Positions 23,310 through 40,302 of a stretch of 64,000 bases of DNA are shown here, in pieces; position 1 is the stretch's first letter; every line of letters begins with the position of its first letter. The notes beneath the pieces were generated by a model. It was not told the origin of the DNA and made no database searches. It worked only from the letters and a program-made list of their open reading frames with translations. A program made the translations under genes and the position numbers. Where the stretch lies: positions 84,322,001-84,386,000 of the forward strand of contig CM059432.1 of assembly GCA_030390025.1 (NCBI GenBank). Direction: 5' to 3'. This stretch comes from Squalus acanthias. Lineage: Eukaryota.

Positions 23310-26300
23310 GGGCTCGATTTTGCCAGGCCCGAGGAGGCGGGGTTGGAGGCGTGTGAAGTGTTAAAATCGCAAAAAATGGCGGGCAGCTCCGATCCCGCCT
23401 CCAGCCCGCCTCTGAGCAATTTTCCCAGAATCGTGGTTTCAGACCCCGTTTCCATCCCGCCTCCAAGAGGCAGGATAGACCCTTAAGGCCCTTAACAACC
23501 ATTTAATTGCCTCTATAATCCCATTTTGATTTCTGATTTTAACACATTTCCCCCGTCCTGCATGTCTCCTCTGGAACACGCCAGTCAATCCTGGCTGCCT
23601 CACAAGTGGATTGCTTACTAACAGCTGCAGCTCCACCATTAAAAAGGAGTTTTCGCCAATGATCATTTGCAGGTGTCAGAACTTTGTTGTCTCAGGTCTG
23701 GGGGAACTTTTAGCAGGCATACTCATTGTTGTGGAAGTTTGGAGCCTGACACCCATCTCCAGTGTGACCTCCTGGGAAACCCCTCTCCCCACCTTGACTG
23801 AGCGCTTCCTCAACTGAGGCATATACCAGAAGCATGGGAACCATTTATTTCCTTTCCTCCTGGACATCAGATTCGGACTAAGACCAGCCGCGGCAGCAGC
23901 AGAGCCATGAACAACAGCAGCACCAACAGCAGCAGCAACAACAGGAGTGCCAAGCTGCTGCTCACCCACCTGAAGCTGCACAGGCTAGAAGGCGCCAGCG
24001 CGCGACCACATTGCTGCCCGGGATGCAAGGGATGCACTCATGTTGGCCAGATTTGCTTAGCCTGCACAATCAAACACTTTTGCCTCACAACTTCTTACCA
24101 GAGCATTGACAATGGACAAGAACCTGCGGATTCCTATCACTCTGACCACCATACTGACAATTGCAAGTCGCCCTAAGCCCTCAATGTGGAAGTCCCATTT
24201 GCGAGATGACACAGGCCACAACTTCAACAGTTTGCCATTAAATCTGTTTATCATAACATTACAACGATGGCTTGTCAAAAACAATACAACATAACACCCA
24301 AGTGACTACCCTTGTGACTACTTGTGCTTTATCTTCCTCTTATGCGTGCTCCTACATGGTACTTCCCCTGTGGCTTCAGCAGATGTGGAGGCCCCTTGCT
24401 CACTTTCTTGCTGCTCCTGTCTCGACACCTTTGGCAGGTGTCCTCTGGGGTTGTGAGCCTGTGAGGGCTCGGCAACAGTCTGCTGCTCCTGCGGCTGTGC
24501 AGGGGCTGAGACGCCCATCTCAGTTGGGTGAGGACTCTGGTGGAGCTCTGACCGAGAGCTTTGCAGTGGCATGGTCGTGTGAGCACTTGGAGAGGAGCCA
24601 CCACTTCCTTGTTGTCTGCCACCAACATCCCACTCATGGGTCAGCCCCACTTCAGAGCTAGCAAGTGGCTGGACAGCACCTTGCTGCACTTCAGGGGGCC
24701 ATGAGGACCCGTTTCTGCACTGGAAGTCCTACTCCAGAGGACTTCCATGAAGGTCTGGTTTCTATGCTCAATAGCTGACCATCGCTCATCAAGCGATGTC
24801 ATTCTATTCTGAACAATGACCATGTTTTCAACACTCTGGCGACTTAGCTCCTCCATGGCCGTAGCCATCCTCTCCTCTACCGTAGCCATCCTTTCCACAG
24901 AGGTTGCCATCCTTTCCGTGGTGATGCGTTCATGCGCCAATGACTCCACTAAGGCTCTGCTCATGATCGCTATGGACTCCTCCATTCGCTCCACACTCGC
25001 AGCGACCCTGGAGACAAAACCTGCCAGAGACTCCTGCACCTGTTCCTGGAGTTCCAGCACCGCTCTCCTTCTGGATGGACCCGGAGGCACATGGTCGACA
25101 TGCAGCTGAGCCGAGCTGGCAGAGTCCTGCACCCTCCGACGAGGACTCCCCACTGCTGTCCCTGTCTCCACCATCTGCTGATGCTCACTTGTGAGCTGTG
25201 ATACACCAGGTGCCAACACTACTCTATCTCCCGAAGGTCCCACCGAGGTGTGAGTGTCTGCGCTGGTGCTGGGTGCACTGAATTCTGCTGACGCGGTGCC
25301 CTCAGAGGTTGCAGCTTCCTCTGAGGAGTGGTGAGGCTCAGGCTGTTCCTCCTGGACAGTGGGGACGGGGGCTGTCGATGGTCCTGTGGGGGAGTAAAGG
25401 GAAGAATAGAGATGTGAGGTAAAGGTTACATGCGCATTGAATTGTGCAGATGATCATAAGTCAATCTGTTAGAGCATCAGAATCATTATCAGTCACTCAT
25501 GCAATGTCAATGAGAGAGATGCCAAACTATTCTGTCACCAGCTTGCTGTGATGCACCCGTCTGTCTGTCCCCCACTTGTGAATCATCCTCGACACCGGCG
25601 ATTTCCAGGGCCGCTTCCTCCAAGGTGGTGAGTTGGGCTACTGAGGGTGGCCCTCCTCCTGTCCTCGCTCTTTCCCTCTTATTGTGAGCTCTCTTTTCCT
25701 GCAATGAGGGAGACAAGTGGAGTTTGAGTGAGAATAAAGGAGTGAGTGTAGTTTTTCTATATCATTGATGGTTAGAAGGAGACAAATTCGGAATGAGGTG
25801 GCAAGACCATGGGCCCTCCCTGTGTGTTGTAAGTTGTTTTCATAGCATCACAGCGATAGGGAGTGTGAGGGATGCACAGTCGAATAGTTAGGTGAATGTG
25901 ACCACACAGAGAGAGGGAATGGGTAAGGGTGCAGGGATGTCAGTTTCAAGTGGGATGTGGAGGAAGAGATTGTCAAAGCTGAGTGCTGGTGAGGAGAGGC
26001 AATGGGGATCAGAATGAGGGTGATGGGAAATTCATACTCACTTTTCCAGTGCGCAGCAGGTCATGAAACCTCTTCCTGCACTGAAGCCAGGTTCTGCGGG
26101 TTATGGACAACCAGTTGACCTCCTCTGCCACCTGGATCCACACAGCCTTGGTTTGATGGGAAGGCTTCTTCCTCCCTGAAGAAGGAAAGAGCACCTCCTT
26201 ATTAGCTCTGGCTCCCTCAATTAAAGCTTGCAGGGCGACGTCATCAAATCAAGGTGCAGACTTAGGTCTCTGGCTGGCCATTCTTCCTGCAGGTACCTCT

Positions 26301-26559
26301 AACATGCAAAGGCAGAAGCTTGGCAGTCTGCAGAGGAAGCAAGGCTTGTTGCAGACCTTAAATGCTGCAGCAATGATGACGTCATCGGAAGCGACTTTCA
26401 GACTGGAAAAACTCACTGGCCATGGGTTCCCACACGTTGGAATCAATTGGTCAATTATGTTAAAATCGCATCAATCTCCCATATCGATTTAGATTCGGGT
26501 GGCTAACACAAAATGCGGATTACACGACCCCAGCCCGCCCCTGAATCAAAATCCAGCCC
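23310..26559 (-). mobile_element. Harbinger with Myb gene retained and transposase core deleted
   Basis: TIRs GGGCTCGATTTTG / CAAAATCCAGCCC; transposase N-terminus (ATG about 23833) joined to its C-terminus near 24000; flanks do not form a TSD. Confidence 0.85.
24318..26281 (-). pseudogene. Harbinger Myb/SANT-like gene, exons 26281-26042, 25698-25539, 25383-24318
   Basis: MASQRPKSAP*FDDVALQALIEG...WLQCRKRFHDLLRTGK; GT-AG introns keep frame; one TGA (probable CGA>TGA) and one frameshift near 24690. Confidence 0.85.
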
Positions 26560-27386
26560 ATAGTGTCAGTGCTGTACGTTCTCTGAACTCAATTGTATTT
26601 GCTCTGTGCACTCTCTGAGCTCAATGGTGTTAGCGCTGCGCATTCACTGAACTCGGGGATGTCAGCCCTGTGAGTTCTCTGAACGCGATAGTGTTAGTGC
26701 TGTGCATTCTCTGAACTCAACAGTGTTAGCACTGTGCATTTTCTCAACTCGATAGAGTTAGGCATTCTTTGAACTCGATAGTGTTAGCATGGTGCATTCT
26801 CTGAACTCGGTAGCGCCAGCGCTGTGTGGTATCTGAACTCGATAGTGTTAGCGCAGTGTGTTCTCTGAACTCGGGAGTGTTAGCGCTGTGTGTTTTATGA
26901 ACTCAATATTATTAGCGCTGTGCATTTTCTGAAATTGATAGTGTTAGCGCAGTGCATTCTCTGAACTCAATATTGTTACCGTTGTGCATTCTCTGAACTC
27001 GGTAGTGTCAGCGCTGCACGTTCTCTTATCTCAATATTGTTATCGTTGGGTGTTTTCTGAACTCGATTGTGTTAGCATTGAACTTGGTAATGTCAGCGCT
27101 GTGCATTCCCTGAACTTGGTAGGTGTTAGTGCTGTGTGTTCTCTGAAATCGATAGTGTCAGCGCTGTGTGTTTTCTGAACTAAATTATATTAATGCTGTA
27201 CGTTCTCTGAACTCAATAGTCTTAGCGCTGTGTGTTCTCTGAACTAAATTGTGTTAACGCTGTGTGTTCACTGAACTCAATAGTGTTAGCGCTGTGCGTT
27301 CTCTGAACTAAATTGTGTTAACGCTGTGTGTTCTCTGAACTTGGTATTGCCGTATTGCCGGTGCTGTGCATCCTCTGAAATTGATA
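26560..27386. repeat. 32-bp minisatellite block 1 (about 26 units), consensus ATAGTGTTAGCGCTGTGCATTCTCTGAACTCR
   Basis: Head-to-tail degenerate tandem units read directly. Confidence 0.92.
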
Positions 27387-30114
27387 GGGGGAGAAATTCA
27401 TTATAGCCCAGGAATGGGCGTTAACTTTTAAAAAGTTTGAGAATTAGCGCCAGGTGCTAATGCTTCAGACTGCACGCAAACTTCAGTCTCATTGAACAAA
27501 GAAAGGATTGGAGCGCTAAATCAAGTGCTAATGGCCTAGCTCAGCGGCATTAAACTTCAAGCGCTGACCAATATCAGGTGCAGTCTAATAACAGGTCATC
27601 ATTGCCACAGGCTCTTTCCAGTTCTTAAAGGCGAGGTTCAGCGATGCTGCAGAACCTCATTCCCATCATTGCTGGCTGTGAAGCCGTCTCAGCAACCAGC
27701 AGCAGGTCAAGGAGAAGGAACCGGACGACTCAAGCAGTTGCAATGATGGCAGATCCACGTCCCAGGGAGAGAGCTCGCAGATTCTGCGACCATGCATTGG
27801 AGGCATTGGTGTTCGCAGTGGAAAGACGGAGGGCGATGCTCTACCCAGCAAGTGGCAGGAGGCCGTCGCCGCAAGTCTTCCGCACCATGTGGAGAGAGGT
27901 AGCCCAGCATGTCTCGGGTAGCACTGTGGTCCCCAGGACCCACACACAGTGCAGGAAGAAGTTTAGTGACCTCACTCGGGTGGTCAGGGTGAGTCAATGC
28001 TTCAACAAATGCTACATACCACCATCTGAACCACAGTCTGCACACACTGCCCAAAGCACCACACCCCCAGCACTCACCCACCAACAATCTCCGCCTACCA
28101 ACACTCACACCCACATCTCACACCTTGCACACAATGACAGCTATTCAACTATGGCAGGCACATCACCCAAACACATTGCTCCACACTCACTCACACACTT
28201 TCCTTTCTCTTGCAGGCCAAGGTGGCTCACAACAGGAGGGAGCAGGAGCACACAGGCAGGGGACAAGCTGACACTCAACCATTGTCTGAGCTGGAGACTC
28301 AAGTGCTGCAGATTATTGGGCACCAGGTGGTGGGTGCTGTGGCCACCGGTGACATTGACCCCCTGGGGACAACAACGGTATGTTCATCCCTACTCCTTCT
28401 CACATCCCACTTCCCCCTCACCCCACAAGCCTTTTGCACTTTCCACCTAATCATGCTGCATGCATGCATTTCTCCCTTCCTGCCCCGTCCCCTCACCTTA
28501 ACCTGAATCTTATGCCTTTCTGCTTTCAGATAAATGAGCAAGCACCTGAGCAGCCTGTCCCTGAGGGCACCGTTGAGAGCAAGGTGGGAGAAGAGGAGGA
28601 GAAAGAACACACCGCATCACTGCATATCTCACCCGCAGGCACCAGCTCAGATACTGGCACTACGTGTTCTTTAGAGGCTAGTATAGTAGCGGGATCTGCA
28701 CAGGGTGATGCACTGGGGATGAGCAGGCTGCAGCAAAGCCAGAGGGAAAGGGTAGCTCAGGAGCCAGCTCCCTGGAGGGCGAGTTTGCACGCGAGTTCTG
28801 CTGCACAGGACTCAGATGAGGACGTCGATGGGGAGGCCTTCAGTAGAAGGGTGACGTGCATGCACATGGAGATGATAGGTGCACTGGCAAGGGTGCCCGA
28901 GAGCCTCTCGGCAATGGTACGGAGTGTGGAGGAGTCCGCCTCCAACATTGCACAGAGCTCTGCGCACACAATGGAGACCATCATTTCCAGTCTGCAAAGG
29001 GTGGTAGACTCCTAGAGAGACTGTGGCGACCCAGACCAGATGCCACATGTGATGGGCAATCTGGCAACCTCCACTGCAGCACAGGCAGAAGTGACGCAAC
29101 GTCTTAGTGCTGTAATGCAGTCTATGCTTGGTGGCATCCAATCTCAGACTGTTCTCATGCAGTTTCAGCTTGATGCAACGCAAGCTCTGACTGCTGCCAT
29201 CGTGGCTGGGTCTACCACCGTCGACCGGGGCTTTCATGGTGTCGCAGCAGGCCAACAATCTGTGCTCCAACAGATTGCTAGGGATGCTGAGGTGCTGCCC
29301 TTGGGGAGTGGCAGTGGGTCAGTGGAGCAGGAACCTGCTGTCCTTTCTCGGGATGACAGCATTCCTGCTCCCACCACTGTCGCTCCGCCATTGTCCTTGT
29401 CACTGTTTGTCATCCAACCAGCCCAGACTGCTGCCGCCGATGCTGAGATGGTGCAGTCTACAGCCAGGCCTTCCAGGGCCAGAGCTGGTCGCGGGCATCC
29501 TGCAAGGCCATCTGAAGTCTCCCGCATGGAAACTCAGCAGCCTTCCACCAGCCCTGCTGCAGCCACTGGGCCAATACTTCGTATGAGCACTAGAGTAGGC
29601 AAAGGCACAGTAACGAGAGACACTAAGGGATTGCACAAGGGTGAATAGGTAATAATGTTGCTGTAAATATGTGTTCACTGATTATTGATAAATTTATTAA
29701 TTCAGCTTGGATTATTTTGTGGTGTCCCTCATTTCAGCTCTGCGCTGTGATATGGCCTGCAACAGGGATGGAATGATGGGGATGTGGTGAGCAACGGGGA
29801 TCTGGGGTTTAATTCATTCGAACCGCAGTCTGATGAGGCGGTCACGGGCCACCCTTCCGGAAGGCCGATTGAGTGGCAGCCTCCTCCCTGGCTCCTGTTC
29901 CTCCTCCTCCTCCTCGTCTTCCTCTTCCTCCTCGTCCACCTCCTCCTCCTCCTCTCCCTCTTCCTCCTCCTGAGGTGATCCCGCAATCCCTGGTGGCAAG
30001 GGCTGGGCCCTCATGATGGCCAAGTTGTGGAGCATGCAGCTGACATCACAAAATGGGACACCCACTCCTCCGAGTACTGGAGGGCTCCTCCCAAGCAGTC
30101 AAAGCAGTGGAACT
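27387..30114 (+). mobile_element. Harbinger (TTAGCGC-subterminal subfamily), transposase end lost
   Basis: TIR GGGGGAGAAATTCATTATAGCC; Myb gene; transposase C-terminus on minus strand (about 29814-30114, CMLHNLAIMRAQP...LIRLRFE). Confidence 0.85.
27743..29648 (+). pseudogene. Nearly intact Harbinger Myb/SANT-like gene, exons 27743-27988, 28216-28377, 28530-29648
   Basis: MMADPRPRERARRFCDHALEALV...QCRKKFSDLTRVVR|AKVAHNRRE...|INEQAPE; splicing stays in frame; single in-frame TAG at 29013. Confidence 0.85.
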
Positions 30115-30240
30115 AATACAAAAGCAAAATACTGCGGATGCTGGAAATCTGAAATAAAAACAGAAAATGCTGGAAATATTCAGCAGGTCAGGCAGCATCT
30201 GTGGAGAGAGAAACAGAGTTAACGTTTCAGGTCGATGACG
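30115..30240 (-). mobile_element. Penelope 3'-end fragment
   Basis: AATACAAAAGCAAAATACTGCGGATGCTGGAAATCTG...GTTAACGTTTCAGGTCGATGAC, same sequence type as 8158-8290. Confidence 0.8.
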
Positions 30241-30787
30241 AAGTGTCTTCATCAACCCTCTCTGTTACCTCATCAAAAAACGCAATCAAGTTAGTTAAAC
30301 ATGATTTGCCTTTAACATATCCGTCCTGGCTTTCCTTAATTAATCCACACTTGTCCAAGTGACTGTTAATTTTGTCCTGGATTATCGTTTCTAAAAGCTT
30401 CCCCACTACTGAGGTTAAACTGACTGACCTGTAGTTGCTGGGTTTATCCTTACTCCCTTTTTTGAACAAGGGTATATCATTTGCAATTCTCCAGTCCTCT
30501 GGCACCACCCCTGTATCCAAGGAGGATTGGAAGATTATGGCCAGTACCTCCACAATTTCCACCTTTACTTCCGTCAGCATCTTCGGATGCATCTCATCCG
30601 GTCCTGGTGACTTATCTACAAGTACAGCCAGCCTTTCTAGTACCTCCTCCATATCAACTTTTTATCCCATCTAGTAACTCAACTACCCCCTCTTTCACTA
30701 TGACTTCGGCTGCATCTTCTTCCTTGGTAAAGACAGAGTACTCGTTTAGTACCTCAGCCATGCCCTCTGCCTCCATGCATAGGTCTC
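30241..30787 (-). mobile_element. CR1 RT fragment
   Basis: DKSPGPDEMHP...VPEDWRIAN...KSCLTNLIAFFDEVT. Confidence 0.85.
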
Positions 30788-30848
30788 CTGTGTGTTTTCT
30801 GAACTCAATATTGTTAGCACTGTCTGTCCTCTGAACCCGATTCTGTCA
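30788..30848. repeat. 32-bp minisatellite block 2 (about 2 units)
   Basis: CTGTGTGTTTTCTGAACTCAATATTGTTAGCACTGTCTGTCCTCTGAACCCGAT. Confidence 0.75.
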
Positions 30849-33540
30849 GAGTAAAAGGATAACTAAAGAAAGGGTAGGGCCTATTAGAGATCATGAGGGT
30901 AATCTGTGTGTGGAGGCGAGAGACGTCGGTAGGGTTCTTAATGAATACTTTGCGTCTGTTTTCACAACGGAGAGGGGCGAAGCAGACATTGCTATCGGGG
31001 GAGGAGTGTGAAATATTAGATGAAATAAACATAGTGAGAGAGGAAGTATTAAGGGGTTTAGCAGCTTTAAAAGTGGATAAATCCCCAGGCCCAGATTAAA
31101 TGTATCCCAGGCTGTTAAGCGAAGCAAAAGAGGAAATAGCAGAGGTCCTGACCATCATTTTTCAATCCTCTCTGGCTTCAGGTGTGGTGCCGGAGGACTG
31201 GAGGACTGCTAATGTGGTACCCTTGTTTAAAAAGGGAAGGATAGACCGAGTAATTACAGGCCAGTCAGCCTAACCTCGGTGGTGGGAAAATTATTGGAAA
31301 GAATTCTGAAGGACAGGATAAATCTTCATTTTAGAAAGACACGGATTAATCAAGGATAGTCAACACGGATTTATTAAGGGAAGGTCGTGTCTGACAAACT
31401 TGATTGAATTTTTTGAGGAGGTAACAAGGAGGGTCGATGAGGGTAGTGCATTTGATGTAGTGTATATGGACTTTAGCAAGGCTTTTGATAAGGTTCCACA
31501 TGGCAGACTGGTCACGAAGTTAAAAGCCCATGGGATCCAGGACAAAGTGTCAAGTTGGATTCAAAACTGGCTCGGAGACAGGAAGCAGAGGGTAATGGTT
31601 GATGGGTGTTTTTGTGACTGGAAGGCTGTTTCCAGTGGGGTTCCGCAGGGCTCAGTACTAGGTCCCTTGCTTTTTGTGGTATATATCAACGATATTTACT
31701 TGAATATAGGGGGTATGATTAAGAAGTTTGCAGATGATACTAAAATCGGCTGTGTGGTTAATACTGAAGAAGGAAGCTGTAGACTGCAGGAAGATATCAA
31801 TAAATTGGTCAGGTGGGCAGAACAGTGGCAAATGGAATTCAATCCGGAGAAGTGTGAGGTAATGCATTTGGGGAGGGCTAACAAGGAAAGGGAATACACA
31901 TTAAATGGTAGGACACTGAGTAGTGTAGAGGAACAAAGGGACCTTAGAGTGCATGTCCACAGATCCCTGAAGGTAGCAGGCCAAGTAGATCTTCTCTTCT
32001 CCTTCTTAGGCAGTCCCTCGGAACCAAGGATGACTTGCTTCCACATTAAAAATGAGTTCTCAGGTGACTGATGAGTCCAATGCGGGACCGACAGTCTCTG
32101 TCACAGGTGGGGCAGACGGTGGTTGAGGGGTGGGGTGCTTGGGTTGACGTGCGCTCCTTGCGCTGCTTGCGTTGGCTTCCGCTTGCTCCCGGCGAAGAGA
32201 CTCGAGGTGTTTGGCGCCTTCCCAGATGCTTCTCCTCCACTTCGTGCAGTCTTGGGCCATGGATACCTAGGTGTCAGTGGGGATGTTGCACTTTTTCAAG
32301 AAGGCTTTGAGAGTGTCCTTGAAGCGTTTCCTCTGGCCACCTGGGGCTCTCTTGCCGTGTCGGAGCTCCAAGTAGAGCATTTGTTTTGGGAGTCTCGTAT
32401 CAGGCAGGCGGACGATGTGACCCGTCCATCGGAGCTGATTGAGCGTGGTCAAAGCTTCGATGCTGGGGATGTTGGCCTGAGTGAGAACACTGACAATGGA
32501 TTTGCAGGATCTTGCAGAGGCAGCGTTGGTGGTACCTCTCCAGTGTTTTGAGGTGCCTGCTGTACATGGTCCATGTCTCTGAGGCATACAGCAGGGCGGG
32601 TATCGCTGCTGCTCTGTAGACCATGAGCTTAGTGCCGGGTCTGAGGTCCTGGTCTTCAAACACTCTCTTCCTCAGGTGACCGAAGGCTGCACTGGCACAC
32701 TGAAGGCGGTGTTGGACTTCATCATCGACGTCTGCCCTTGTTGACAGTAGGCTCCCGAGGTATGGAAAGTGGTCCACGTTATCCAAGGCCTTGTCGTGGA
32801 TTTTGATAATCGGGGGGCAGTACTGTGTGGCGGGGGCAGGTTGGTAGAGGACCTTTGTCCTCCGGATGTTTAGTGTAAGGCCCATGCTCTCGTATGCTTT
32901 GGTGAAGGTGTTGACGATGGTTTGGAGTTCGACCTCCGAGTGAGCACAGACGCAAGCGTCGTCTGCATATTGTAATTCGACGACAGAGGATGGGACAACA
33001 TTGGATCTGGACTGGAGGCGACGGAGGTTGAACTGTTTCCCGTTTGTTCTGTAGATTAGCTCCACTCCAGCGGGGAGCTTACTAAGGGTGAGATGGAGCA
33101 TTGCAGCAAGGAAGATCGAGAAGAGCGTTGGTGCGATGACACAGCCTTGTTTGACCCCGGTCCGTACCTGAATTGGGTCTGTGGTGGTTAAGAAGGCATA
33201 CAAAATGCTTGCCTTTATTAGCCGTGGCATAGAATACAAGAGCAGGGGAGTTATGCTTCAACTGTATAAAACACTAGTTAGGCCTCAGCTAGAGTACTGC
33301 GTGCAGTTCTGGTCACCACATTACAGGAAAGATGTGATTGCACTAGAGAGGGTACAGAGGAGATTTGCAAGGATGTTGCTGGGAGTAGAGAATCTTAGCT
33401 ATGAGGAAAGACTGGATACATAGAAGATAGGAGCAGGAGTAGGCCATTCGGCCCCTCGAGGCTGGGTCTGTTTTCCTTGGAACAGAGGAGGCTGAGGGGA
33501 GACCTTATTGAGGTGTATAAAATTATGAGGGGCATTGATA
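30849..33540 (+). mobile_element. CR1 LINE fragment, split by an RTE insertion
   Basis: Close relative of 12838-14575; KVAGQVD | VVKKAY is interrupted at 31991-33185. Confidence 0.88.
31991..33185 (-). mobile_element. RTE-clade (BovB-like) LINE 3' fragment
   Basis: GVKQGCVIAPTLF, LQYADD, FPYLGS, LLYASETWT, LRWTGHIVR, GGQRKRFKDTLK, CPTC...SHLRTH; GAA-rich tail. Confidence 0.88.
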
Positions 33541-33544
33541 AAGG

Positions 33545-34520
33545 TCACAGAACTCTGCCACCTCCTGTAACCAGACTTCCAGCCTCAGATCAGGGCGACC
33601 ACGGCTCTCTCAGTGGTAGTCAAGTTCACCGTCGCAATCAATTTCTTCGCCAGCGGATACTTCCAGTCTGCAACAGGAGACATAGCTAACATCTCGCAGT
33701 TCGCCATCTATCGCTGCATCCGGGAGGTCAGAGAGGCGCTCTTTACCGTAGGAGAAGGGACTGCATTTCCTTCCCCATCACCAGAGAGAAGCAGGATGAA
33801 CGTGCATGTGGCATTGCCAGGATAGCGGGATTCCCCATGGTGCAGGGCGCCATTGACTGCACGCATGTGGCTTTGCGGGCACCGCATAACAATCCTGAGA
33901 TCTTCCGTAACCGCAAAGGCTACCACTCACTTAATGTGCATTTGGTGTGCGACCACATACAGCGAATCCTCACCGTAAATGCCCGCTATCCTGGCAGCAG
34001 CCACGATGCCTTCATCCTGCGCCAGACTGGTGTGCCAACACTCTTCCAGCCACCACGTCAAGCTCGCGGCTGGCTTGTCAGAGACAAGGGCTATACGCTC
34101 TCCACCTGGCTCATGACTCCCCATCACAACCTCAACACTCCTGCCCAGCACTCATATAATGAGAGCCATGCTGCCACCAGGAACATCATCAAGCGGACCA
34201 TCCGCCTGCTGAAGCAATGGTTCCGCTGCCTTGACCGCTCGGAAGGAGCCCTCCAGTACTCGACTGAGCGGGTGTCCCATTTCGTCATGGTGTACTGCAT
34301 GCTCCATAACTTGGCCATCATGAGGGCCCAGCCCTTGCCACCAGGGATTGCGGCACCACTTCAGGAGGAGGAAGAAGGAGAGGAGGAGGAGGAAGATGAG
34401 GAAGAGGAAGATGAGGAGGACAACGAGGAGGAGGAACAAGAGCGAGGGAGGAGGCAGCCACTCAATCGGCCTTCTGGAAGGGTGGTTCGTGACCGCCTCA
34501 TCAGACTGCGGTTGAATAAA
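33545..34520 (+). pseudogene. Harbinger DDE transposase lacking its N-terminus
   Basis: NFFASGYFQ, VQGAIDCTHV, FRNRKGYHSLN, YPGSSHDAFIL, DKGY, LLKQWFRCLD, CMLHN. Confidence 0.9.
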
Positions 34521-34797
34521 TTAAACCCCAGATCCCCATTGCTCACCACATCCCCATCATTCCATCCCTGTCGCAGGCCGTAACACAGCGCAAATCTGAT
34601 ATGAGACACACCACAAAATAATCCAAACAGAATTAATAAATTTATCAAAAACCAATGAACACATATTTACAACAAAAATATTAACTATTCACTCTTGTGC
34701 AATCCCTTAGTGTCTCTCGTTACTGTGCCTTTCTCTACTCTAGTGCTCCTATGACGTGTTGGCCCAGTGGCTGTAGCAGGGCTGGTGGAAGGCTGCT

Positions 34798-35012
34798 GTA
34801 ACTAATTATATAAATAGAATAAGATTAGATAGAGATGGCAGTGCATGTGGTGTGTTGTAACTGAAGCATGTGGGAGTTGGTGGAGACCAACAAGATCCCA
34901 AGCAACCACAGTAGGTGCCTACAGCTCGAGGAACTTCGGCTCAGAGTTGTTGAGCTGTTATCCGAGCTTCAATCATTGCGATGCATCAGGGAAGGGGAGA
35001 GTTACGTGGACA
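34798..35012 (+). mobile_element. CR1 ORF1 N-terminal (zinc-finger/leucine-zipper) fragment
   Basis: MAVHVVCCN*SMWELV...CLQLEELRLRVVELLSELQSLRCIREGESYVD. Confidence 0.65.
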
Positions 35013-35483
35013 CCAAGCATAGTCTGAATTACACCACTATGCATTCATTCACCCTGACCACCTGAGTGACGTCGTTAAATTTATTCCTGGACTGTGTGTG
35101 GGTCCTGGGGACCACAGTGCTGCCCAAGACGTGCTGCGATACCTCCCTCCACATGGTGCGGAAGACTTGCGGCGAGGGCCTCCTGCCACTTGATGGGTAG
35201 AGCACCGCCCTCCATCTCTCCACAGCGAACACCAACGCCTCCAATGCTTGATCGCAGAATCTGCGGGCTCTCTCCCTGGGGTGTTGGTCTGTCATGATTA
35301 CAGCTGCTTCAGTCCTTTGGCTCCTTCTCCTTGACCTGCTGCTGTTTGCTGAGACAGCTGCACAGCCAGCAAAGCTGAGAATGAGGTTCTGCAGCATCAA
35401 TGAACCTCCCCTTTAAGAACTGAAAAAAGCCTGTGGCAATCATGACTTATGATTGGACTGCCCCTGATATTGGTCCACCCTTT

Positions 35484-36350
35484 GGGCTGGATTTTACTTA
35501 CCGATGCGAGTTGGGGGCGGGACTGCTGCCTTCCGGGTTCTAGTCCCACCTCCAGCGACGTCTGACGAACAGACGCTATTTTACCCTGATTGGCCTTGTT
35601 AAGTCCGCCCTGCGGGCTTGCCCGCCAATTAAGGGAAAGCCGGTGTCAGATGACGTCAGTTGATGACGCTTCATCTGCCGGTTTTCTTAAAGGCATATGC
35701 ACCACACTTGTTTGACAGATAAATTGTCAGTGTTTGACAGCATTGAGATGCTGTCAAATACTGACAATCACTGTACACAGGTGAGCCCTTGTACACAGGC
35801 TCTCCAATTACTCTCTCCTTAGAATAAAACAGATGGCAGCTGCAGGTGAGATTGCAGAAGCCATCTGTCACTTCTCCCGATGAAATGAGGCCACACAAAC
35901 ACTTCACAGCCTGTCACCTGCAGAAACATCTAACCACATTAAAAATTACTTTCATAACATTTCCTTAGCTCTGATACTAACCATTGTCACTTTGCATGCT
36001 TCACACCACTTCTGCAGCTGTCATCCAAACAACAACATAACAACAGACCCACAGCACGCCTCACTTACCCAGGCGGGGTTCCCCGACGTCAGGAAGCCCG
36101 CAGCAGCAGTCGAAAAATTGGGAAAAACCTCTTAACTGCCTGTTAACTACCTGTTAACAGGCAGTTAAGTGGCTATAATCCTCTTCCCGCCGCTAGGAGT
36201 CGGGTCCCTGCGCAAATTGGGGACTTGACTCCCGGGAAGATTGTATGGAGGCGGGTTGGGAGCAGGTTCGGGACCCGCTCCCATTCTTTTTGACTTTCCC
36301 AGCAGCCCCACCTCCACATCCGCCTCCCCAAGGCTGGTAAAATCCAGCCC
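35484..36350. mobile_element. Harbinger MITE nested in a Harbinger subterminal region
   Basis: TIRs GGGCTGGATTTTAC / GTAAAATCCAGCCC; TSD TTT / TTG; an uninterrupted homologous site is at about 42922-42948. Confidence 0.85.
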
Positions 36351-36524
36351 TTGGAGTGTAACACCGGTGAGCTTGGGCTTTAAGGTTTGAATTAGCACTC
36401 CAATCATTTCTTTGAGCAGTGAGCACGAATTTTGCGTTCAGTGAAAAGCATTAGCGCCTGGCGCTAATTCTCCAACTTTTCTACTGACACCGCCCATTCC
36501 TTGGTTATCATGAATTTCTAGCCC

Positions 36525-36591
36525 AATATTGTTAGTGCTGTGCCTTCTCTGAACTCAATTGTGTTTGCGCTGTGTGTTCACTGAACTCAAT
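36525..36591. repeat. 32-bp minisatellite block 3 (2 units)
   Basis: AATATTGTTAGTGCTGTGCCTTCTCTGAACTCAATTGTG... Confidence 0.85.
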
Positions 36592-36895
36592 GGCTGGAAT
36601 CTTTATGTTGGAATCGGGTTGCGTGTGTGCGGGCCGCGTACCTTGTCGGGAACACGAAGATGTGAACAGCGCATTCTTCAGTGCGACTTTTACTAAATGG
36701 TCCCAATTAAACCAGTCATGCGTGTTTCCCTGTCCAATTAAATGGAGCAGGTCTGATGATGTCATCGATAACTTGTTTCCAGTGCCAATATTTAAAGCAG
36801 CTGTGCACACATCTCAGTTGAAGGTTGATGTAAGAGTGAATAAGTTGGTATCCAGAGGTCTGAGTAGCATCATAAAACTGCTAAAAGTGTGGGTC

Positions 36896-38262
36896 ATGGT
36901 GACACAAAGGCAGAGGGCTGCACCAAATTCTACGATGCCTCCCTTGATGTTCTGCTGCAGACAGTTAGAGCAGGCAGCGAGGTCCTCTTCCTCAGCGATA
37001 GATGAGAAAGACCACATAAAGACACAAAAAGGGCATGGTCGGAGATTGCAGAGGAGGTCCGTAGCAGGGATGTGGTCAGGAGGACGTGGATCCAGTGCCG
37101 GAAAAGATTCAATGATCTCATGAGGTCAGGAAAGGTGAGTGCAATTCCACACTCACCTACATCCTGCTGTGCCTGTCACCCCAACCCCATCACTGCCTTC
37201 CCAAGCCTACTCCTGCACATCATTCCTCACACTAACCTACATTGCATGTTCACCCATCCCTCTCTGTCTATGTACCTACTCACATCCCCATCTGACTAAC
37301 CACCACTGACACTCCCCCTCATCCTAATGCAATCATAGCAAGTAACTCCACAGAAGGAGGCCATTTGGCAATGTCACGCCATTCCCTCATAGTCACCCTC
37401 TACAGATGTAGCCCATCCATTCCTTATACTCATTCCATCACTCTCACTCAAAGTTCTCTTCTTTCCCTCCTTGCAGGAGAAGAGAGCCCACCACAGTAGG
37501 GAGAGGCTGAGAATCGGAGGTGGCCCTCCAGTCTTCACTCAATTGACACCAGCAGAGCAGGGGGCCCTGGAGATATCAGGAGTTGCAGAGCTGCTGGCGG
37601 TGGAAGACAGAGCGAGGGGGACATCCCAGCAACCTGGTGACAGAATTACATCTCATACAGCCTCATGGCATACAGCAGTCACTCATATGGTGACTGATGT
37701 CAGCAGCCAGTGAAATGTCATCATGTGCATAATGGTAACATTACCGATTCTTAATATAACACTTCTAAATCATCTCTTTACTCTCCCACAGGTCCATCAA
37801 GTGTCCTCCCACCCCCACATTTTCCAGCTGGAGCAGTTAGACGACTCCTCAGAGGAAGTTCCAGCCTCTAGTGGTGCAGCATCAGCAGACCCAAGCACAG
37901 CCAGCACTAGCGCAGATACGCACACCTCGGTGGGTCCTGTGCGAGATAGGGTAGCGTTGTCACCTGGTGTCTCTCACATCACAAGTGAGCAAGAGCAGAT
38001 GGTGTTGACTGGGACAGCAGTGGAGACTCCTCGCTGGAGGGCACAGGACACTCCAAGCTCTGCTGAGCTGCATGCAGATGCTAAACCTCGGCGCTCATCG
38101 AGAAAGAGGGTGATCTTGGAGGGGCAGCAACAATTGCAGGAGGCTCTGGCAGCTTTTGCAGCCACGATGTCTGCAAATGTGCAGAGAATGGAGGAATCCA
38201 TCTCCAACATGAGAACCACCATCTTGCAGGCGATGGCGACGATGTGCTGTTCCATGGAATAG
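36896..38262 (+). pseudogene. Harbinger Myb/SANT-like gene (exons 36896-37134, 37477-37636, 37792-38262), truncated
   Basis: MVTQRQRAAP...VRRTWIQCRKRFNDLMRSGK|EKRAHHSRER; frameshift in exon 1. Confidence 0.8.
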
Positions 38263-38266
38263 CTGG

Positions 38267-39030
38267 TCACCTAGAGTCATGACAGCTGCCAGGGAATCTG
38301 GTGCACACATGCATGATGATCTTTTTATGATTGTAGATGAGCAGCACATTGAGGGAGTGGAAGCCCTTGCGGTTCACAAACACTCCTGGGTGATGATGGG
38401 GTGCCTTGATGGCCACATGTGTGCTGTCGATGACGCCCTGCACCTGTGGGAAGCCAGCCAGAGCTGCAAAGCTGAGCGCCCGCTCAGTAACACTGGCCTC
38501 ATCAGTGGCAAAGTTGACATTATTGGTTGACTTGTGAAACATGGCATCGGTCACCTGGATGATACATCTGTGGACAGCTGACTGCGAGAACCCGCAAATA
38601 TCAGTTGCAGATCCCTGGAAAGAGCCTGAGGTGAAGAAGTTGAGGGCGGTGGTGACTTTGACAGCCACTGGTAAGGCGTGTCCACCAGGTCCTCTGGGCA
38701 GCAGGTCTTGTTCCAGCAAGCTACAAATGTCTGCGACGATCTGGCGCGATAACCTGAGCCTGCTGAAGCATTGTTGCTCAGTCATGTCCAGGAAGCTCAT
38801 CCTCTGCCTGTATACCCTGTGTTGGGGGTATTGTCTCCGGTGCGGTGCAGCCCTGTGCTGACCCCCTCCTGTGCAGCATCAGGTCTTTGAGGAGAAGGCT
38901 GCTGTTGTGGTTGCTGCTGCTGCTGCTGGTATTGTGGCTGCTGCTGCTGGTGTGGCTGGTGTTGGTGCTGTGACTCATCTTGGTCCGATTCTGAGGTCCA
39001 AGATCAGACAGTAAGGGACACCTATGCTGA
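38267..39030 (-). pseudogene. Harbinger transposase N-terminal half
   Basis: [11 protein letters not shown]...[11 protein letters not shown]...[14 protein letters not shown]...[11 protein letters not shown]...PGSCHDS. Confidence 0.88.
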
Positions 39031-39342
39031 TGTAATAGATGGCAGGTAAAGTGGAGATCAGAGGCCCAATCACTGAACGCTGTGATAGTGACTAGCAATG
39101 TGGTGAGAGTGGGTTCGAGGTTGCAAAAATGACCTGCGAACTGTTGACAGCTAAATCTCTGCACAAAATGGAGTCAGCAAGAGCTTTTCCATTAGCCAAG
39201 TAATCAGGTGTAATGTGGGAGTATTTATATGTTGTTCCCAGCTCTCAATTAATGGACTCGCACAATGGCCACTGAACTTCCGCCTCCCCTTCACAGGCGA
39301 GGTTCCCGAGGTGCATGAATCCCATGCTCCACAAGTTAAACC

Positions 39343-39705
39343 ACAACAACAACAACAACTTGTATTTATATAGCACCTTTAACGTAGTAAAATGTCCCAA
39401 GGCACTGCACAGGAGTATTTTAAGATTAAAAATTTGACACCGAGCCACATAAGGATAAATTAGGGCAGGTGACCAAAAGCTTGGTCAAAGAGGTAGGTTT
39501 TAAAGGAGGAAAGAGAGTTCATGAGGCGGAGAGGTTTAGGCAGGGAATTCCAGAGCTTAGGGCCTAGGCAACAGGAGGCACGGCCATCAAAGGTTGAGCG
39601 ATTATAATCAGGGATGCTCAAGAGGGCAGAATTAGAGGAGCGCAGATATCTCGGGGGGGTTGTGGGGCTGAAGCAGATTACAGAGATAGGAAGGGCCATG
39701 GAGGC
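39343..39705 (-). mobile_element. L2 LINE 3' end
   Basis: GPKLWNSLP...SSFKTYLFDQAF; tail GGTGCTATATAAATACAAG(TTG)n on the minus strand. Confidence 0.75.
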
Positions 39706-39915
39706 CAAAATCTGCTGTTAAAAACCCTCTTAAGGGTCTCTTAACAAGCATTTATGTACTTGAATGAGGTCGTCCACCTCTCCCGAGCGGGTCCATGGTG
39801 TACTGGCAAATGCGCCCGAGTTAAATGCGGAAGTCGGTGGGATGACGGCGGTTTCCGATTATTGCTGCTGACCCGCCCCCAAACCCGCATGCTTGGGACT
39901 GGGAAAATTCCGGCC

Positions 39916-40302
39916 AATAGTGTTCGCGCTGAACGTTCCCTGAACTCGATTGTGTTAGCGCTATGCATTCTCTGAACTCGATTATCTTAGTGCTGTGCAT
40001 TCTCCGAACTCAATATTGTCAGCCCTATACATTTTCTGAACTCAATAGTGCCAGCGCTGTGCATTCACAAACTTGCTAGTGTTAGCACTATGCTTTCTCT
40101 GAACTCGATAGTATTAGGGCTTTGTGTTCCCTGAACTTGATAGTATTAGCACTGTGCGTTCTCTGAACACGGTAGTGTTGGTACTGTGTGTTCTCTGAAC
40201 TCAGTACTGGTAGCACTGTACGTTCTGTGAACTCGATAATGTTAGCGCTGTGTGTTCTGTGAACTCAATAGTGTTAGCGCAGTCTATTCACTGAAATCAG
40301 TA
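39916..40302. repeat. 32-bp minisatellite block 4 (about 12 units)
   Basis: Same unit and orientation as 26560-27386. Confidence 0.92.

What the first reader, a model, noticed from the sequence alone, without database searches (positions are those of the whole stretch)
26560..40302. 32-bp minisatellite acting as a position-specific Harbinger landing array
Seen: one co-oriented array (about 42 units, about 1.35 kb) is spread over 13.7 kb by insertions. Four Harbingers from at least three subfamilies have five ends abutting the array, all at the same point of the unit within 1 bp: CCC|ATAGTGTC (26559), GAAATTGATA|GGG (27387), CCC|AATATTGTT (36524), and GAACTCAAT|GGC...GCC|AATAGTGTT (36592/39915, TSD AAT). 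Known: zebrafish Harbinger3_DR prefers AAACAC-CWG-GTCTTT targets. Inference: the unit offers the half-sites GAACTC and GTGTTA 4 nt apart, which would explain the two registers (AAT and ATA) and make the array a repeated target or sink for Harbingers.
Basis: partly seen in the sequence, partly recalled or inferred. Interest (0 to 1): 0.75.

Follow-up and report, generated by a model that had tools for sequence, protein, structure and literature searches.

The report
Harbinger pile-up in LINE-borne minisatellite
Four cut-and-paste jumping genes sit at the same spot of a 32-letter repeat, likely because that spot is the closest match the repeat offers to the landing sequence these elements prefer everywhere in the genome, but other arrays of the same repeat are not enriched for them, so this is a local pile-up and not a dedicated landing pad.

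Summary
Observation confirmed: about 42 co-oriented 32-bp units in four pieces, with five Harbinger ends at unit phase 1 (AAT) or 2 (ATA). The phase is real. Six of 7 independent Harbinger insertions in other arrays start at phases 1-4 (p=2e-5), and a matrix trained on 222 ends outside arrays ranks phases 1 and 2 in its top three for this array. These families prefer RRACWC-NNN-GWGTYY genome-wide, like zebrafish Harbinger3_DR.

The 'landing array/sink' is not supported. Each register has only one good half-site (3rd percentile of 35 real sites). None of 87 sibling copies lies in an array. Genome-wide junction scans found 5 against about 18 expected, and 2 against about 12. LTR and CR1 insertions are commoner in arrays.

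The repeat is the 3' VNTR of an old L2-derived dispersed element (about 0.83 Mb of array in the genome). This copy is old, lies in a Harbinger-rich region and has likely shrunk by deletions; element A is a two-subfamily chimera. Four insertions in 1.35 kb is still a partly unexplained local excess. The scan noted similar Harbinger hotspots in other repeats of this genome.

The parts
23310..26559 (-). Harbinger 'A': chimera. Left about 2.4 kb from subfamily A' (left end in a CR1), right about 0.85 kb from the younger subfamily A (end in the array, target ATA, phase 2); crossover near 25.6-25.8 kb
   Evidence: left windows 91-96% to A' copies (77-83% to A in the first 450 bp); right windows 95-99% to A and 79-90% to A'
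26560..27386 (+). 32-bp array piece 1 (about 26 units, 84% to consensus)
27387..30115 (+). Harbinger B (Myb-like gene and transposase 3' part); left end in the array after ATA (phase 2); far end, about 1.3 kb, missing
30116..30787 (-). short retroelement tail (30116-30239) plus a CR1-type RT fragment on the minus strand whose 5' end abuts array piece 2
   Evidence: (RVT_1 E 3e-5, below the curated cut-off); clade name recalled
30788..30849 (+). 32-bp array piece 2 (about 2 units) between two LINE 5' ends
30850..33543 (+). CR1-type LINE fragment, 3' end missing, split by an RTE-like LINE on the minus strand (about 31995-33183)
   Evidence: RVT_1 in both; clade names recalled
33544..36524 (-). 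Harbinger C (B-related subfamily; DDE transposase and Myb-like gene); right end in the array before AAT (phase 1); far end, about 0.7 kb, missing
35484..36350 (.). Harbinger-type MITE nested in C, outside the array
36525..36591 (+). 32-bp array piece 3 (about 2 units) between C and D
36592..39915 (+). Harbinger D, both ends in the array, TSD AAT (phase 1); about 1 kb internal deletion at 38272; LINE fragment at about 39345-39703
39916..40302 (+). 32-bp array piece 4 (about 12 units); ends at the tail of a minus-strand LINE; the element's natural 150-bp 3' end is absent from the window

Best explanation
The four Harbingers share a position in the unit most likely because that position is the best available, though weak, match to the ordinary 15-bp target these transposons prefer everywhere; the repeat family is not enriched for them. 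Shown: the families prefer RRACWC-NNN-GWGTYY outside arrays; the unit carries one good half-site for the AAT register and one for the ATA register; insertions in other arrays fall at the same few phases; arrays hold fewer Harbinger ends than the genome average; the array is the 3' VNTR of an L2-derived dispersed element. Inferred: this copy is older than the large arrays, lies in a region about twice as rich in Harbingers, took independent insertions in at least two periods (B, C, D about 10% from their relatives, the A end about 2-3%), and then lost array DNA and element ends through at least three deletions, one by recombination between an A' copy in a CR1 and an A copy in the array. This brought the surviving junctions close together.
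For: Target matrix from 222 ends outside arrays; flanks of 29 copies each of A, B and D. Matrix-predicted share of insertions in the focal array: phase 1 0.35, phase 15 0.25, phase 2 0.22. For the GGSC end class it predicts phase 1 0.42, phase 4 0.22, phase 2 0.11 in other arrays, and all 6 events of that class are at phase 1 or 4. Predicted mean target weight of arrays is 0.55-0.96 of the genome mean. Unit registers score at the 3rd percentile of 35 complete real sites. 0 of 87 sibling copies have array within 1.5 kb. Junction scans: 5 of 11 matches in arrays against 18.1 expected (P=3e-4); 2 of 30 fetched matches in arrays against about 11.9. Dispersed small arrays: 1 event in 21.5 kb, 0.96 expected. 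Deletions: chimeric A, missing far ends of B and C, both natural flanks of the VNTR element absent from the window. Focal units are 81-84% to consensus, three large arrays 91-95%. Window outside the focal elements is about 20% Harbinger-like against 9% in 200 kb at arbitrary positions.
Against: Four insertions in the surviving 1.35 kb remain very unlikely at face value: P=5e-7 at genome density, 8e-6 at twice that, 0.013 if the array was once 10 kb at twice density. Focal rate against dispersed arrays: p=6e-5. The original array size cannot be measured. The matrix also predicts phase 15 strongly (0.25-0.75 in four of five matrices), and 0 of 11 events are there; for the A class it gives phase 2 only 0.07. 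Most non-focal array DNA (233 of 255 kb held) is in large, more homogeneous and probably younger arrays, so the depletion is partly an age effect. Six of the 7 non-focal events come from one C4 domain.
Confidence: 0.75

Rival explanations
1. One reading: the 32-bp array family is a preferred target or sink because repeated half-sites attract Harbinger transposases.
For: 4 insertions in 42 units here; the same phases recur in other arrays; insertions span at least two ages.
Against: 0 of 87 sibling copies in arrays; 5 observed against 18.1 expected and 2 against 11.9 in genome-wide scans; 2 against 9.6 in 215 kb of array not chosen through a Harbinger hit; Harbinger events to CR1 tails 2:15 in arrays against about 12:9 in arbitrary DNA (Fisher p=0.006, rough tallies); unit sites at the 3rd percentile of real sites.
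Confidence: 0.07
2. Local attraction or local hopping: resident Harbinger ends, bound by their Myb-like protein, draw new insertions nearby, and the unit only sets the exact base.
For: C and D face each other across 67 bp. The 1.5-kb outer flanks of 98 sibling copies hold 31 other ends in 147 kb, 2.2 times the genome average (P=6e-5). For A, B and C the end at the array is the Myb-side end (3 of 3; for A inferred from similarity).
Against: The 31 neighbouring ends are spread evenly over 0-1500 bp (9, 10 and 12 per 500 bp), which fits regional richness and not short-range attraction. The four elements belong to different subfamilies and ages (B and C are 87-89% identical), so they are not hops of one copy.
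Confidence: 0.12
3. Transposase-made adjacent deletions: single ends of A, B or C attacked nearby sites in the array, giving one-ended junctions without full independent insertions.
For: Three of the four elements have only one end at the array, and both natural flanks of the VNTR element are gone.
Against: A changes subfamily in its middle, which points to homologous recombination between two inserted copies. The missing ends of B and C are lost at LINE junctions inside the elements, not at inverted repeats.
Confidence: 0.06

Closest known systems
Harbinger3_DR / Harbinger3N_DR of zebrafish (PIF/Harbinger superfamily)
   Same: Two genes (DDE transposase, Myb-like protein), 3-bp TSD, 15-bp palindromic target. 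Published consensus AAACAC-CWG-GTCTTT (PMC3016246, passages read); 15-bp preference in vertebrates (PMC2836001, passages read). That consensus outscores all 35 real sites on the matrix built here.
   Different: The central triplet here is A/T-rich and loosely specified rather than CWG, the half-site is more degenerate (RRACWC), and the duplicated triplets often disagree (20 of 46 automatically paired elements, some pairs possibly wrong).
Position-specific insertion hotspots of one transposable element inside another (Levy, Schwartz and Ast, PMC2836564; abstract and section list only)
   Same: Insertions fall at specific positions of a host repeat because it carries the integration motif.
   Different: The host here is a tandem unit, so the hotspot appears as a phase, and there is no excess of insertions into the host family.
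Strictly repeat-targeting elements such as R2 in 28S rDNA (search listing only), Pokey and Dada (recalled)
   Same: Insertion at a fixed position of a multicopy sequence.
   Different: Those elements live mostly in their target repeat; here 0 of 87 sibling copies are in the array and the arrays are not enriched.
Minisatellites carried by or born in retroelements (SVA VNTR, B1- and MaLR-derived mouse VNTRs; recalled, also named in earlier scan notes)
   Same: A dispersed VNTR family with shared flanks from a retroelement and very variable array length.
   Different: The carrier is an L2-type ORF2 3' part joined to the array and a 150-bp unique end; array domains reach hundreds of kb. No paper on this unit turned up in searches (listings only).

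Membership tests
PIF/Harbinger DNA transposons (elements A-D) | DDE_Tnp_4-type transposase gene | tested here: met
   C E 1.3e-33, D E 3.8e-11; B by 89% identity to C's transposase region; no transposase frame of A was scanned
PIF/Harbinger DNA transposons (elements A-D) | second gene with a Myb/SANT-like domain | tested here: met
   PF13873 in B and C above cut-off; A's tested frame (a downstream exon) had no hit; D's was not scanned
PIF/Harbinger DNA transposons (elements A-D) | short terminal inverted repeats and 3-bp TSD | tested here: met
   D: AAT on both sides; full-length siblings of A, B and D mostly show 3-bp duplications, several with mismatches; 26 of 46 paired elements perfect, 9 with one mismatch
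PIF/Harbinger DNA transposons (elements A-D) | extended 15-bp target preference | tested here: met
   information at positions -9 to -4, strongest A at -7 and C at -4
Repeat-targeting (site-specific) transposon systems | most copies sit in the target repeat | tested here: not met
   0 of 87 sibling copies
Repeat-targeting (site-specific) transposon systems | target repeat enriched for the element | tested here: not met
   5 against 18.1 and 2 against 11.9 expected; 2 against 9.6, and 1 against 0.96; age of arrays only partly controlled
Repeat-targeting (site-specific) transposon systems | fixed insertion position in the repeat | tested here: met
   10 of 11 events start at phases 1, 2 or 4 of 32: a few positions rather than one
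L2-derived dispersed VNTR element (carrier of the array) | shared 5' flank from LINE ORF2 with variable 5' truncation | tested here: met
   shared 250-830 bp at 77-86%; RVT_1 E 1e-4 upstream in L309, below the curated cut-off; other copies of this LINE continue differently at the same point; the L2 clade label rests on recalled motifs
L2-derived dispersed VNTR element (carrier of the array) | mobilised as a unit by retrotransposition (tail, TSD) | tested here: inconclusive
   shared 150-bp 3' end with a sharp boundary, no simple-repeat tail seen, TSDs not examined; no matching inverted repeat upstream in 12 of 12 copies

The most novel reading that the evidence does not exclude
This locus is a true Harbinger trap: once one element is in an old array of half-sites, its protein-bound end recruits later transpososomes of other subfamilies, which then use the phased half-sites. 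A tandem repeat plus a resident element would thus build a self-reinforcing, phase-locked landing zone over millions of years.
Probability: 0.1. Interest if true: 0.6.

Novelty: new member of a known kind. Interest (0 to 1): 0.27.

Why it matters
It is a clean natural read-out of vertebrate Harbinger target choice: the zebrafish-type 15-bp preference is shared by several families in a distant vertebrate genome, and one good half-site appears to be enough to set the insertion base. It is also a caution: phase-locked insertions in a tandem repeat do not imply targeting of that repeat, since LTR elements show their own phases in the same arrays. The carrier, an L2-derived VNTR whose copies range from 2 units to a domain of about 0.8 Mb, is a usable model of satellite growth. 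None of this needs a new mechanism.

Tried and rejected
B and C as the two ends of one element: rejected. Their end sequences and registers differ, they are 87-89% identical, and each matches one side of full-length B-family copies.

The B-C interval as an inverted duplication: rejected. The arrays stay on the + strand and the inverted CR1 pieces are only 73% identical.

A as one intact element with mismatched flanks: rejected. It switches subfamily near 25.7 kb; none of 8 A copies has the A' left end, and none of the 4-7 A' copies that align in the right-hand windows has the A right end.

The VNTR carrier as an inverted-repeat DNA transposon: no matching inverted repeat within up to 8 kb upstream in 12 copies.

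The VNTR as an insertion into an intact L2: L2 sequence does not resume after the 150-bp end.

The two registers as an artefact of overwritten duplications: rejected. Register is set by bases beyond the triplet, and C4:85028176 shows phase 2 at both ends.

Short-range attraction between ends: no distance trend within 1.5 kb.

Pfam gave no meaningful family for the L2 C-terminal stretch. Look-ups of earlier scan notes by sequence and by words returned nothing. Ten further array-flank stretches (C4, C6, C9, C10) were not examined, so the junction census is smaller than planned.
Full report
Setting. The window is G000:C8:84322001-84386000 of a 3.7-Gb assembly; a cartilaginous fish is my guess from recalled repeat motifs and earlier scan notes, not tested. 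Phase 0 below is the C that ends TGAACTC, so RAT is phase 1-3, ATA phase 2-4 and AGT phase 4-6.

1. Observation. Tandem Repeats Finder and a cyclic HMM give four co-oriented pieces totalling about 42 units: 26560-27386, 30788-30849, 36525-36591 and 39916-40302. Five Harbinger ends abut them: A right end 26559 (target starts at phase 2), B left end 27387 (phase 2), C right end 36524 (phase 1), and D at 36592 and 39915 (phase 1, TSD AAT). Pfam finds DDE_Tnp_4 in C and D and Myb_DNA-bind_5 in B and C; 2 of the 9 frames scanned had no hit, among them A's.

2. Anatomy of the locus. Against full-length siblings, B lacks about 1.3 kb and C about 0.7 kb of the far end, and D has an internal deletion of about 1 kb. 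Between B and C lie a minus-strand CR1-type piece, two array units and a plus-strand CR1-type piece split by another LINE; both CR1 pieces have lost their 3' ends. A is a chimera. Windows left of about 25.7 kb are 91-96% identical to subfamily A' (8 copies), while the first 450 bp are only 77-83% to A. Windows to the right are 95-99% to A (8 copies) and 79-90% to A'. Its left end sits in a CR1 behind a good half-site, its right end in the array. I infer recombination between two inserted copies with loss of the DNA between them. So at least three deletions have shaped the locus, and the original array length is unknown. B, C and D are about 90% identical to their relatives and the A end 97-98%, which implies at least two periods of insertion.

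3. What the repeat is. The unit is genome-wide (386 matches from 37 of 716 candidates scored). Arrays share a 150-bp 3' end (685 candidates, a rough figure) and a 5' flank that is the 3' part of a LINE ORF2, truncated at variable points and 77-86% alike between copies (weak RVT_1). At the junction about ten copies run into the array, whereas the other copies of this LINE that I hold continue with ordinary sequence. The L2 label is recalled from the protein motif. Arrays run from 2 units to uninterrupted stretches of 29 kb. An exact 12-base anchor occurs 15,707 times against 2,580 for its control; at 0.51 anchors per unit this gives about 0.83 Mb of array, of which I hold 255 kb outside the window. 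Neither natural flank is present in the window. Focal units are 81-84% identical to consensus, three large arrays 91-95% to their own, so this copy is likely older.

4. Target preference. The 29 nearest other copies each of A, B and D show the half-site R-R-A-C-W-C at -9 to -4; 222 distinct ends outside arrays give the same matrix (many come from those searches, so the classes are not a random sample). This matches the published Harbinger3_DR consensus (PMC3016246, passages) and the 15-bp vertebrate preference (PMC2836001, passages). In the unit, phase 1 has a good left half (+4.2 bits) and a bad right half (-1.8); phase 2 has the reverse (-4.3, +4.4). Among 35 complete real sites (46 automatic pairs, 11 dropped for two or more TSD mismatches) the median two-half score is 7.5 and only 6% have a negative half. 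Both unit registers fall at the 3rd percentile, though within the top 3-9% of arbitrary positions. The unit is thus a weak target with two least-bad registers. Mean predicted weight is 0.96 (focal) and 0.55 (others) of the genome mean.

5. Phase in other arrays. I found seven independent Harbinger insertions: C4:84802310 (phase 4), C4:84911024 (phase 1; eight tandem copies counted once), C4:85028176 (2), C4:85106637 (4), C4:85426053 (1), C4:85546138 (1) and C2:108892608 (8). Two came from fetched regions and five from a scan that allowed any phase within 30 bases of the anchor. The matrix for the GGSC end class predicts phases 1, 4 and 2, and all six such events (C included) are at 1 or 4. Against the model: it predicts phase 15 strongly for other classes and none of 11 events is there. 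Phase is not special to Harbingers: 21 of 42 distinct LTR-type junctions start their 4-bp duplication at phase 4, 27 or 28, and only 2 at phases 1-2 (phases picked after inspection).

6. Enrichment. Exact end patterns occur 249,985 and 102,153 times, with controls of 17,740 and 3,581, or 4.45e-5 per strand position. After 13,127 array anchors one expects 18.1 junctions; 5 of 11 matches were in arrays (P=3e-4). A second anchor on the other side gave 32 matches, of which 30 were fetched and 2 were in arrays, one of them focal A; about 11.9 were expected, from an anchor count scaled from held loci. In 215 kb of array not chosen through a Harbinger hit there are 2 events against 9.6 expected; in 21.5 kb of dispersed small arrays 1 against 0.96. 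With CR1 tails as a rough clock, arrays have 2 Harbinger events to about 15 tails, and 200 kb of arbitrary DNA about 12 to 9 (p=0.006). None of 87 siblings is near an array. Caveat: most array DNA is in large, probably young arrays, much of it one C4 domain, so 'depleted' is partly age; 'not enriched' also holds for the small dispersed arrays, on one event.

7. The residue. Four insertions in 1.35 kb have P=5e-7 at genome density and 8e-6 at twice that; with a former length of 10-20 kb at twice density P is 0.01-0.1. The region is about twice as Harbinger-rich as average, and Harbingers cluster regionally in general (31 ends in 147 kb of outer flanks, 2.2-fold, with no distance trend). Age, region, contraction and the selection of one striking window out of tens of thousands probably account for the pile-up, but I cannot show that they do so fully.

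8. Comparison and verdict. The elements are ordinary PIF/Harbingers. Position-specific nesting through integration motifs is described for human elements (PMC2836564, abstract). PMC9179366 (passages) reports no Harbinger in elephant shark and asks for other cartilaginous fish to be checked. Searches (listings only) showed no paper on this unit or on Harbinger phase in a minisatellite; the primary Harbinger3_DR papers were not read and no supplements were opened. Earlier scan notes describe like Harbinger hotspots in Penelope and CR1 repeats, and an L2-born minisatellite with a different unit, in this genome (unchecked AI notes). Verdict: real feature, phase explained by a known preference, sink not supported; new member of a known kind; interest 0.27.

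Noticed in passing
G000:C4:84741183-85575585 (loci L051-L070, L232-L250): Array pieces of this unit, all on the + strand in the parts read, are spread over about 835 kb and end in the element's natural 3' end; possibly one L2-borne VNTR grown into a satellite domain. Roughly half the span was fetched.
   Followed up: partly
same C4 domain; also C6:54543141-54544777: LTR-type elements (TGT...ACA, 4-bp duplications) are the commonest identified insertions, and 21 of 42 distinct junctions start their duplication at phase 4, 27 or 28. Almost all are in the C4 domain.
   Followed up: partly
G000:C4:84911024-84927435: A higher-order repeat of about 2.46 kb made of about 1.7 kb of array plus one 760-bp Harbinger MITE, copied about seven times in tandem.
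   Followed up: no
   Followed up: partly
L294 (C1:33613591-33613433) and L188 (C22:57054079-57054243): A short MITE with CAATGT-type ends and an apparent 8-bp duplication (hAT-like, label recalled) inserted twice into arrays at neighbouring phases.
   Followed up: no
G000:C6:55.15-57.11 Mb (L173-L175, L177, L179, L180, L182, L184): A set of arrays with the same derived 5' junction: segmental copies of one VNTR locus with array lengths from 188 bp to 5.9 kb.
   Followed up: no
G000:C17:62017570-62033178, L302 (C7:955600), L188 (C22:57054-57055 kb): Array pieces in opposite orientation close together, directly abutting at C7, suggesting local inversions.
   Followed up: no
L102 (C20:49581257): A young A copy sits about 17 bp from the end of a related element, head to head.
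   Followed up: no
genome-wide: About 330,000 exact Harbinger-type ends net of controls, whereas PMC9179366 found no Harbinger in elephant shark; of interest if this genome is a cartilaginous fish.
   Followed up: no
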